A stretch of DNA of 64,000 nucleotides, from positions 47,368,001 through 47,432,000 of the forward strand of contig NC_135660.1 in NCBI RefSeq assembly GCF_964188315.1. Reading direction: 5' to 3'. The notes under the pieces were generated by a model that was not told the origin of the DNA, searched no databases, and saw nothing but the letters and a program-made list of their open reading frames with translations. This document shows, in pieces, positions 24,045-38,672 of the stretch (positions are counted from its first letter, which is position 1; every line of letters begins with the position of its first letter). The DNA comes from Podarcis muralis (taxonomy: Eukaryota). The translations under genes and the position numbers were made by a program.

Positions 24045-24525
24045 AGGCAAAGACAGGCGAACTAATACCAGTGTACTGGAAGAAGGAAAGATCACCAATG
24101 TTGAAGCAATGATTCTTCAACATCAACTTCATTGGACTGGTCACGTTGTTCAGATGCCTGATTATCATCTTCCAAAGCAACTACTCTATTCCAAACTTTA
24201 AAATGGAAAGCATAATGCTGGTGGTCAACAAAAGAGGTTTAAAGACTCTCTCAAGGCAAATCTTTCAAAAAAGTAGTACAAACACTGACAACTGGTGGCC
24301 TGCGAGAACTCCAGTTGGAGAACAGCCTTTACCAAAGGTGGCATGGACTTTGAAGACACTCAAACTCAGGACAAAAGGGAGAAATGAGCTATGTAAGAAG
24401 AAGGCACGCTTGGCAAACCCTCACCATGATCAACTCCCACCTGGAAACCTATGTCCTCACTGTGGAAGGATGTGTGGATCCAGAATTGGCCTCCACAGTC
24501 ACCTACGGACACACTGCTAAGACCA
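24045..24525 (+). mobile_element. RTE-clade (non-BovB) LINE 3' fragment, frameshifted
   Basis: Translates RRTNTSVLEE...QLHWTGHVVQMPDYHLPKQLLYS and terminal CPHCGRMCGSRIGLHSHLRTH zinc finger, typical of RTE ORF ends. Confidence 0.88.
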
Positions 24526-29185: not shown

Positions 29186-29434
29186 AAGAAGAAGAAGAGT
29201 TTGGATTTGATATCCTGCCTTTCACTCCCTTTAAGGAGTCTCAAAGCGGCTATCATTCTCCTTTCCCTTCCTCCCCCACAACAAACACTCTGTGAGGTGA
29301 GTGGGGCTGAGAGACTTCAAAGAAGTGTGACTAGCCCAAGGTCACCCAGCAGCTGCATGTGGAGGAGTGGAGACGCAAACCCGGTTCCCCAGATTACAAG
29401 ACTACCACTCTTAACCACTACACCACACTGGCTC
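29186..29434 (-). mobile_element. Squam3-like SINE
   Basis: Reverse complement of 26-273 with (AAG)n tail. Confidence 0.9.
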
Positions 29435-29500
29435 TTCCCCACTTGGTTTTCAGTTGAGGGCAGCAACCAATTAGCATTATTGTTACGTCTTTAATCTTGT

Positions 29501-30209
29501 TGTTGTTGTTGTCTTCAGTCTGTCTTGAGGGACAATGGAGTGTGCCTCCAGGGGTGAGGTCAAATCACTGCATTAGCAGCACCTAAGTAACCTCCCCGGG
29601 ACACAAGCCTGGGTAGTGTGTATAGAGGTCCTGGGCTGCCTAGATAACAAGATCCCCTTCTCGGTCTCGCTGATATGGGCCAACGGAAAAGAGAGCAATA
29701 CGTATGGCATCAGCTTGGCTGCAGTTGTTGTTGGAAGGAGGCAAACAAGGCGCCATCCAACTGTTTTAGGGACTCCACTCTGGATTTGTGTAGGGTTTAC
29801 TTCATAGCCTTTTCTTCTCCCACATGGCAGCTGCAGTTTAGGATCAAAGTTTTCTATCTCCTTCCCACATTGACAAGCCCCATCTGCCCCTCACTTCCCT
29901 CTTTAGCATGTGCAGAAACCACCTTCCTGACTATTGGTCTTGTCCACACAATCCACCAGAGCCTGTCTTTGCATGCAGGGGAAGTCCCTAACTCACTGAG
30001 GATTTGAGACCCAGCGGCTACCCTCACCTCGTTTAGCCAGCCAATCAAAGCCATTCCCAGGGTGTGGCGGCTGTACACACTGACAGCTTTTAGGAACCAC
30101 AGGTGAGAGCTGAGTGCAGTTGGGTACCAAAGGTGGACAAACTACCTTTGGTAGCATAATGTGTCCCCTATCAGAAGCACTCCTCCTCCTCTAACACCCC
30201 GTACACCCC
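29501..30209 (-). mobile_element. Non-autonomous RTE-type retroelement: ribozyme head, no ORF, (CAA)n tail
   Basis: (TTG)n tail at about 29498-29513; imperfect TSD tttaatcttgt (29490-29500) / tttcatcctgt (30210-30220), 9 of 11 identical; no RT-like ORF; RTE affiliation inferred from the tail type and 5'UTR-like motifs. Confidence 0.7.
30021..30209 (-). ncRNA. Putative HDV-like (nested double pseudoknot) self-cleaving ribozyme
   Basis: Minus strand: P1 GGGGUGU (30209-30203, repeated at 30200-30194) / ACACCCU (30065-30059) with G1.U wobble; P2 CUCUCACCU (30109-30101) / AGGUGAGGG (30029-30021); P3 GGU (30098-30096) / GCC (30068-30066); P1.1 CC (30094-30093) / GG (30058-30057); J4/2 GCUAA with candidate catalytic C at 30036. 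Confidence 0.72.
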
Positions 30210-31540
30210 TTTCATCCTGTATGGTTACTAAAAACATGCACTAGAGTGAGAGGAAATCAACGCCAGATTGACATCATGTTCAACAATGTGAAAGTATTCC
30301 TTTAATCTGCTTTGAACTCTTTTTCTCCCTTCCAAGTTCCCAACGAAATTTGTATGCAAGAGCTCTTTAAACATAAAAGGTAATTAAATGACAAGACCCA
30401 TCATAAATACAGAGCTCCTCAAACAGAAGGAAAGCACGCTTGGCCAAAAAGAAATTAATTAAATATAATCTGATTTTTAAAAGTTAATTATATATCTTAT
30501 GTTGTCCTTATTCAATAGTACTGTGTTGGGAGGATAGAAATCAGAGCATTATTTAAGGGCTTCTCTGCCTTTAACTTCTGCCTATATTTCTTCCTATGCA
30601 CATAAGAAACTGGCCCATCTACCTCAATGTTGACCACACAAGGGTTGGGAACCTTTGGCCCTCCAGATGTCTCTAAACTTCACCTCCCAACAGCCCCAGC
30701 AAGCTTGGCTGCCCGTGTTTCTTTAGGGTTTCTCCCAGCCCTTTCCAGAGACGATGGGAACTGAACCCGAGATGTGCTGCATACAAAGCAAATGTTCTAC
30801 CACTCAGTTATGGCCCTCCTCTAAAGTCAGGGTTTTTGACTCCAGTAGAACACTCGAAAATAGATCGGCTGAGAAAGAGCAAGCAGAAGAGAAACTGACT
30901 ATGCGTTCTCAGTGAAATTATTGTACTGAGGCGAATTGGAGTGCTCATAAAATGTATGAAAGACTTTAATGCCTCAGGGTCTTTTATTAGAGCAGCGGTG
31001 CAATCTTGTACATGTCTGCTCAGAAATCAGTCCTACTGAGATCAGTGGGGCTAACTTCAGGCAACGTGTGCATAGGATTGCTACCTAATTGTTCAGAGGC
31101 ACCAGGAGGTTTCCAGCTACATTCAGAAGGTCGGGAATTTAAAGGTAGCTTCTCCTCTGCTCTTTTTCCACTTAAAGTCAAACAATGCTGAATATCAGCT
31201 CTTAGTCTTAGCATATATAATATAAAGGATGAATTGGCCAGAGATGTTAGGGATCCCCTATACCTCCCTTTGTTGACATGGTTTGCAGTGTAGATGTGAC
31301 TTGCTGCATTTATCTTTTCTGTCCTGGGTCTACAATATTGCAAAGATAGTAGTTGTATGTAATTGTTGTTATCCATGCTGTTGGACATTTATCAGCATAG
31401 TTGAAGGTGCCGTGACTTTCCACGGATCCTCAGAATACTGATTACATGGCCACACAACAGATATATGCCACATGTTGGCCAGGAAGTACTTTCCTCTGCC
31501 ATTTTAAATAAGTCCCTCACAGCTTGTGTCCAAAAGCCTT

Positions 31541-38472: not shown

Positions 38473-38672
38473 CCAGAAGGAGAGATGTGGCTCAGAGGTT
38501 GAGCATGTGCATTGCATGCAAAATGTCTGAGATTCAATTCTTTGTCTCTCCAAGAAGGGCTTTAGAAAGAATCTTGCATGCGACCCTGCAGAGCCACTGC
38601 CAGCCAGTGTTGGCAAAACTCAGCTGGATGGGCAAGAGGTGTCTCCTGCTATGAGGCAACTTCCTGACCATA
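38473..38672 (+). mobile_element. Squam2-like SINE, diverged
   Basis: tgtggctcagaggttgagcat head and gagccactgccagccagtgt body, related to 317-490. Confidence 0.6.

What the first reader, a model, noticed from the sequence alone, without database searches (positions are those of the whole stretch)
29490..30220. ORF-less ribozyme-headed retroelement whose boundary matches the predicted cleavage site
Seen: the ~710-bp unit has a (CAA)n 3' tail like the BovB/RTE tails in this window, no RT-like ORF, and no tRNA-like head. It is bracketed by an imperfect 11-bp duplication (tttaatcttgt / tttcatcctgt) that begins immediately next to G1 (30209). The P1 5' strand is tandemly repeated (GGGGUGU-AC-GGGGUGU). 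Inference: this is a non-autonomous SINE-like family in which a ribozyme, not a Pol III promoter, defines the 5' end. Host read-through transcripts would be self-cleaved to unit length and mobilised in trans by an RTE LINE, such as the family at 24045-24525.
Basis: partly seen in the sequence, partly recalled or inferred. Interest (0 to 1): 0.7.

Follow-up and report, generated by a model that had tools for sequence, protein, structure and literature searches.

The report
Ribozyme-headed shortened RTE retrotransposon
This 709-base insert is an old, worn copy of an abundant jumping element made only of the front and back ends of a longer LINE retrotransposon found in the same genome; its first bases are predicted to fold into a hepatitis-delta-type self-cutting RNA with an extra hairpin, which likely set the element's start, an arrangement that is already known.

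Summary
The unit (30209-29501, minus strand) is one copy of a dispersed family (6,750 candidates; 83% identical to the consensus). It is not a SINE of separate origin. It is a bipartite non-autonomous RTE-type LINE: a 5' UTR joined by internal deletion to a 3' end. Decayed parent copies in this genome carry the same UTR upstream of an APE-RT ORF and nearly the same tail. The proposed driver at 24045-24525 has a different tail and is rejected. An intact relative from a metagenome starts with the same HDV-like core (48 of 50 nt, one compensatory pair) and a canonical 7-nt L3; this family has a 28-nt L3 with a hairpin. Full-length copies start at or just after G1, but most copies (25 of 29) are 5'-truncated. 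The tandem GGGGUGU is predicted to be the P1.2 stem strand, not a second cut site. This copy's core is damaged. Cleavage and read-through are untested. The kind is published (Kojima 2018), and this scan has noted such elements, with the L3 hairpin, in other genomes.

The parts
29501..30209 (-). Whole bipartite non-autonomous RTE-type element (short subfamily), 709 bp
30209..30220 (.). 5'-side target-site duplication copy (12 bp if G30209 is counted, else 30210-30220)
29489..29500 (.). 3'-side target-site duplication copy, 2 mismatches to the other
30203..30209 (-). P1 5' strand; G1 = 30209 = predicted cleavage site and family 5' end
30108..30202 (-). J1/2 domain (P1.2-like); the second GGGGUGU is predicted to be the 5' strand of its basal stem
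   Evidence: folding of the family consensus and of L330
30096..30107 (-). P2 5' strand, linker and P3 5' strand (GGU here, GGC in the family)
30069..30095 (-). L3, 27 nt here (28 nt in 66 of 72 copies; 7 nt in the intact relative L330), with an inserted 6-bp hairpin
30057..30068 (-). P3 3' strand, P1 3' strand and the GG of P1.1
30023..30056 (-). P4 domain, J4/2 (CUAAAC; predicted catalytic C at 30036) and P2 3' strand (C-to-G change at 30030 breaks one pair in this copy)
29568..30022 (-). Rest of the RTE 5' UTR, including a domain at about 29892-29836 that is shared with distant RTEs
29512..29567 (-). 3' end of the parent RTE (mostly 3' UTR), joined by internal deletion at about 29572-29567
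29501..29511 (-). (CAA)n tail

Best explanation
This is an old copy of a non-autonomous element made of the 5' UTR and the 3' end of a LINE present in the same genome (likely RTE clade), headed by a predicted HDV-like ribozyme that likely cut the family's RNA at the element's first G. SHOWN: a dispersed family with TSDs; the UTR, ORF end and tail are collinear with decayed APE-RT copies; the deletion junction is defined; full-length copies start at G1; the core is conserved with an intact relative. INFERRED: a long subfamily arose by deleting almost the whole ORF, and the short subfamily (this copy) lost about 66 nt more across the junction and about 60 nt inside the UTR. Pol II transcripts beginning upstream of or at the element were trimmed at G1 by the ribozyme, helped by the P1.2 stem. 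The parent's APE-RT protein bound the shared 3' end in trans and inserted cDNA by target-primed reverse transcription, most often stopping early. This copy is likely a weak or dead ribozyme (broken P2 pair, weakened P3 and P4).
For: Parent copies: L316, L317 and L319 carry unit positions 311/446/520-682 directly upstream of the ORF, and L316 and L319 end in the matching tail; tblastn covers 787, 999 and 374 of 1037 aa of an intact protein; RVT_1 E=4.6e-10. L274 and L322 carry the ribozyme region, with the L3 hairpin, upstream of coding pieces. The long subfamily keeps the ORF's last codons and shows the junction. The consensus matches 21 of 80 metagenome loci of related LINEs, 20 of them in the 5' part. 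L330 has an open 1082-codon frame and a head that passes a strict HDV descriptor from its first G. The cores share 48 of 50 nt, the two differences forming one compensatory P2 pair, against 58 of 94 in J1/2. G at the G1 position in 21 of 34 copies, against 5 of 34 one base further upstream. TSDs 16 of 46 versus 21 of 400, with 12 of 16 ending within -2 to +3 of G1.
Against: No cleavage was measured. No single copy in this genome with G1, the whole ORF and the tail was found. The parent copies' 3' end differs from the unit's at diagnostic sites (53-56 of 66 matches), so the true driver may be a sister subfamily. The 28-nt L3 departs from the canonical core; only 5 of 61 near-full heads pass the strict descriptor in the right register, and this copy fails. 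The head sample is biased towards full-length copies. Covariation rests on one outside relative. A 5' end at G1 would also arise from a promoter starting there. In four RNA runs (6-13% of each read) the unique flanks had zero depth, and the few reads on the unit carried other copies' letters, so read-through is not seen at this locus. The RTE label was not tested by a tree.
Confidence: 0.75

Rival explanations
1. Same bipartite element, but the 5' end is set by an internal Pol II promoter in the retained UTR that starts at G1. The ribozyme fold is a relic, disabled by the L3 insertion or kept for another role such as protein binding or RNA protection.
For: The element keeps about 450 nt of UTR beyond the ribozyme, conserved with distant LINEs. 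Kojima 2018 (PMC5786205) says bipartite LINEs are very likely Pol II transcribed and that LINE 5' regions drive transcription. L3 is part of the catalytic core (PMC4908430).
Against: Every core nucleotide around the insertion matches the canonical relative, and the hairpin is kept in both autonomous and non-autonomous copies. There is no excess G one base upstream of G1, as reverse-transcribed caps might leave (weak, and the expectation is recalled).
Confidence: 0.2
2. One reading: a SINE-like family with its own ribozyme head, mobilised by the RTE family at 24045-24525.
For: No Pol III head; 5' ends at G1.
Against: That family has a different tail ending in (GAA)n; head and body are the 5' UTR of another LINE family.
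Confidence: 0.03
3. Random truncation or local decay of an autonomous copy; the fold and the TSD are chance.
For: Most copies are 5'-truncated; the TSD here has 2 mismatches.
Against: The same internal junction recurs across dozens of loci; TSDs exceed the control; the core is conserved in L330.
Confidence: 0.02

Closest known systems
Bipartite non-autonomous RTE LINEs: RTESINE1/2, WALLSI3, MAR4_MD, RTE-N2_Lch, Bov-A (Kojima 2018, PMC5786205; parts 1-4 of 5 read, supplement passages seen)
   Same: Only the 5' and 3' parts of an RTE, no ORF, no small-RNA head, the LINE's 5' end retained; the paper links this to 5' self-cleaving ribozymes.
   Different: Different host and parent family. Whether Repbase or Dfam already names this family could not be checked (libraries not held).
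HDV-like ribozymes at RTE 5' ends (Ruminski et al. 2011; not held, seen only as cited in PMC5786205, PMC3774820 and PMC6765202) and drz-Agam-2-1 with its P1.2 domain (PMC4908430, passages)
   Same: Nested double-pseudoknot layout, predicted cut at the first base of P1 coinciding with the element's 5' junction, and a structured J1/2 (P1.2).
   Different: L3 is 28 nt with an inserted hairpin rather than 7 nt; no activity has been shown here.
R2 SIDEs, NARTc and RIME (review passages in PMC6765202; abstracts of PMC3414825 and PMC3383444 in a search listing; PMC5786205)
   Same: ORF-less internal-deletion derivatives mobilised in trans; SIDE and NARTc keep the parent's ribozyme.
   Different: Other LINE clades and hosts; SIDEs are site-specific in 28S rDNA, whereas this family is dispersed.

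Membership tests
Bipartite non-autonomous RTE LINE | 5' part is the 5' UTR of an autonomous LINE | tested here: met
Bipartite non-autonomous RTE LINE | 3' part is the 3' end of the same LINE family | tested here: met
   53-56 of 66 matches, with diagnostic differences
Bipartite non-autonomous RTE LINE | No ORF; spreads as its own unit with a shared junction and TSDs | tested here: met
Bipartite non-autonomous RTE LINE | Parent belongs to the RTE clade | tested here: inconclusive
   Single APE+RT ORF of about 1040 aa in close relatives and a UTR domain that resembles RTE alignments in Kojima's supplement by eye; the C-terminal motif as an RTE mark is recalled; no tree with named RTEs was run
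HDV-like ribozyme | P1 (7 bp from G1), P2, P3, P1.1 and P4 in nested double-pseudoknot order | tested here: met
   Family consensus and L330 pass the descriptor; this copy has one broken P2 pair
HDV-like ribozyme | J4/2 with catalytic C in C-N-R-A | tested here: met
   C in 68 of 72 copies; identical in L330
HDV-like ribozyme | Short (about 7 nt) L3 | tested here: not met
   28 nt in 66 of 72 copies; its first six nt equal those of L330's 7-nt L3
HDV-like ribozyme | Self-cleavage 5' of G1 | not testable with these tools
   Needs an in vitro assay; 5'-end clustering is indirect
Pol III SINE (tRNA, 5S or 7SL head) | Small-RNA-derived head | tested here: not met
   the head is LINE UTR

The most novel reading that the evidence does not exclude
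The family's ribozyme is active despite a 21-nt hairpin inserted into L3, a loop of the catalytic core. With L330, which has the same core and a 7-nt L3, it forms a natural with-and-without pair showing that the HDV fold accepts a fourth peripheral domain, and its cut fixed the 5' end of thousands of vertebrate insertions.
Probability: 0.55. Interest if true: 0.5.

Novelty: new member of a known kind. Interest (0 to 1): 0.3.

Why it matters
As an element it is ordinary: ORF-less derivatives that keep a LINE's ribozyme-bearing 5' end are published. The useful part is the matched pair of ribozyme heads with and without the L3 hairpin, which makes a direct test of core tolerance cheap. The identified parent and junction also show which UTR parts are dispensable for mobilisation in trans: the short subfamily lost a motif that is conserved in distant relatives.

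Tried and rejected
Driver at 24045-24525: rejected on its tail. Second cleavage register at the second GGGGUGU: only 5 of 61 heads start at +9/+10, amid starts spread from +4 to +16; both the consensus and L330 fold that stretch into the J1/2 basal stem. Rfam finds no HDV-type family in the unit or in L330's head, even at E<10, so Rfam is uninformative here. Pfam on eight short stop-free pieces of L317 gave nothing above cut-off; no PDB sequence match. A pattern for an autonomous-specific head found only L322 itself. A helix between the parent's 5' and 3' ends (lead from earlier notes): whole-segment duplex z -2.7 for this genome's parent and -1.8 for L330, but the best duplexes did not sit at the junction. 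A 10-bp helix in L330 was not shared by the 12 other metagenome loci tried, several of which aligned poorly, and the short subfamily lacks the 5' strand; not supported here. No RNA holder was listed for the stretch. No empty allele among the shown joints of four DNA runs (56 rows not shown), so the TSD could not be checked against an empty site. 360 kb from 36 evenly chosen stretches held only one 38-bp tail match, too few for an unbiased 5'-end histogram. An alternative P3 register (proximal GCU, with the hairpin between P3 and P1) was considered by eye and not excluded. Ruminski 2011 and a 2011 review were not held; the two paper searches aimed at L3 changes listed nothing that describes an L3 hairpin by title or abstract start, which does not show it is unpublished.

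Full report
Observation. The unit reads on the minus strand from G30209 to a (CAA)n tail ending at 29501, 709 bp. It has no long ORF, no match to an intact RTE protein and no Rfam head. The flanking duplication is there, but it extends to 12 bp with 2 mismatches and then includes G30209, so this copy alone cannot place the boundary to the base. The host looks gecko-like from a neighbouring SINE; that label is recalled and comes from no call.

It is a family. A search of the own genome gave 6,750 candidates; the 40 scored include this copy, and the others are 73-79% identical to it. A 744-bp majority consensus from 30 loci is 83% identical to this copy. Only one 38-bp tail match lay in 360 kb of evenly chosen stretches, which fits thousands of copies rather than tens of thousands (my arithmetic). 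Of 29 copies selected by the tail alone, 4 reach the first three bases and 25 start at positions 41-534. Of 30 long-variant copies selected by a junction motif, 3 reach the first 15 bases. Flanks were limited to 1.5 kb, so nested insertions may hide some heads. Most copies are therefore 5'-truncated, as for a LINE.

The 5' boundary. Among 61 heads reaching within 22 nt of the start (a sample biased to full-length copies), 38 start at G1 to +3, 5 at +9/+10, and 18 elsewhere between +4 and +16. In 34 copies with the first GGGTGT intact, the G1 position is G in 21 and the next base upstream is random, G in 5. TSDs were found for 16 of 46 copies with both ends, against 21 of 400 mismatched flank pairs; 12 of the 16 end within -2 to +3 of G1, with rough offsets. 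The boundary at G1 is therefore a property of the family.

The parent. The family at 24045-24525 ends in a different sequence followed by (GAA)n and gives 9-16 matches to the unit's last 66 nt. A longer subfamily of the unit keeps about 66 extra nt that include the last codons of an ORF. Following these led to 5'-truncated coding copies with a closely related tail (53-56 of 66 matches), and then upstream. L316, L317 and L319 carry the unit's UTR directly before the ORF, with 787, 999 and 374 of 1037 aa covered by tblastn. L274 and L322 carry the ribozyme region upstream of coding pieces. The RT piece hits RVT_1 and is up to 67% identical to database proteins, many of them about 1040-aa endonuclease-plus-RT proteins. 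One search shows the junction: the long variant follows the parent's UTR up to GAGTTA and then switches to the ORF end. The short variant, which includes this copy, has lost that junction as well. The parent copies differ from the unit at a few diagnostic 3' sites, and no copy with G1, ORF and tail together was found. The RTE label rests on architecture, a recalled C-terminal motif and a by-eye likeness to RTE UTR alignments in Kojima's supplement; no tree was run.

The ribozyme. The consensus matches 21 of 80 metagenome loci of related LINEs. One of them, L330, has an open 1082-codon frame, a related tail and a head that passes a strict HDV-like descriptor from its first G. The descriptor gave 9 hits in 636 kb; seven look like chance and one (L403) is a separate canonical-looking fold. 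L330 and the CpG-restored consensus share 48 of 50 core nt, the two differences being one compensatory pair in P2, while J1/2 shares 58 of 94. L3 is 7 nt in L330 and 28 nt in 66 of 72 copies here; the extra 21 nt hold a 6-bp hairpin, also present in the RTE-linked L322. In both heads the stretch after P1 folds as the basal stem of J1/2. In L330 that stretch is not a repeat of P1, so the tandem GGGGUGU is best read as the P1.2 strand. Such P1.2 stems speed cleavage in drz-Agam-2-1 (PMC4908430, passages). Five of 61 heads still pass the strict descriptor in the right register; this copy does not, having a G-G mismatch in P2 and weakened P3 and P4. Other individuals show a change at G1 and a 10-nt deletion in the tandem repeat, each in one contig, as expected of neutral decay.

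Mechanism. Shown: structure, parentage, boundary and conservation. Inferred: Pol II transcription, cleavage at G1, recognition of the 3' end by the parent protein in trans, and target-primed insertion. Four RNA runs, 6-13% of each read, showed no depth on the unique flanks and only other copies' reads on the unit, so read-through is not seen at this locus. An internal promoter remains the main rival.

What is known. Kojima 2018 (PMC5786205; parts 1-4 of 5 read) describes bipartite non-autonomous LINEs from RTE, Ingi, Vingi and R2, notes that they keep the LINE's 5' end, and links this to self-cleaving ribozymes. PMC3774820 (passages) states that the cleavage site coincides with the 5' junction in RTE, citing Ruminski 2011, which was not held. 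PMC6765202 (passages) covers SIDEs and promoter-less RTEs. The L3 hairpin was not described in what I could see from two aimed searches; the unseen Ruminski paper and its supplement may bear on this. Earlier notes of this scan report the same arrangement in other genomes, with no look-alike by sequence; they are not counted as support. Their suggestion of a helix between the two ends was tested and not supported here.

Verdict. A real, ordinary bipartite non-autonomous LINE with an inherited, predicted HDV-like ribozyme. The L3 hairpin, with its canonical counterpart in L330, is the one point worth an experiment.

Noticed in passing
L328, L329, L330, L331, L346, L349, L366, L405 (5' UTRs) and L316/L317/L319: A motif of about 35 nt near the end of the 5' UTR is conserved across distant LINEs. 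The long subfamily's junction falls inside it and the short subfamily has lost it, so it is dispensable in cis for mobilisation.
   Followed up: partly
L403:3424 (+): A separate canonical-looking HDV-like fold (7-nt L3, J4/2 CGAA) lies inside the span of the RTE match, perhaps a nested insertion.
   Followed up: no
L355:~365-520; L364:~1475-1640: Related LINEs with a different G-rich head; L364 has a small hairpin near the presumed P3-P1 junction, hinting that insertions there recur (by eye).
   Followed up: no
window 29186-29435 (-): Very high-copy SINE next to the unit, Squam3-like (name recalled); family reads are abundant in RNA runs.
   Followed up: no
window 24045-24525 (+): 3' fragment of a younger RTE-type family (5,921 candidates, 88-90% identical copies) whose relatives end in (GAA)n; this copy lacks that tail.
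   Followed up: yes
window about 3371, 47703, 51657 (-): Three BovB-type 3' ends (label recalled) with (CAA)n tails, unrelated in sequence to the unit's tail.
   Followed up: partly
window 38481-38550 (+): tRNA-like stretch at 29.3 bits, just at the gathering score, likely a SINE head.
   Followed up: no
L066, L083, L118, L121: Further internally deleted versions of the unit with other breakpoints; single copies or rare subfamilies.
   Followed up: no
L161/L162 (G000:C11:53663228-53663939): The parent's 3' end occurs twice in tandem, 466 bp apart.
   Followed up: no
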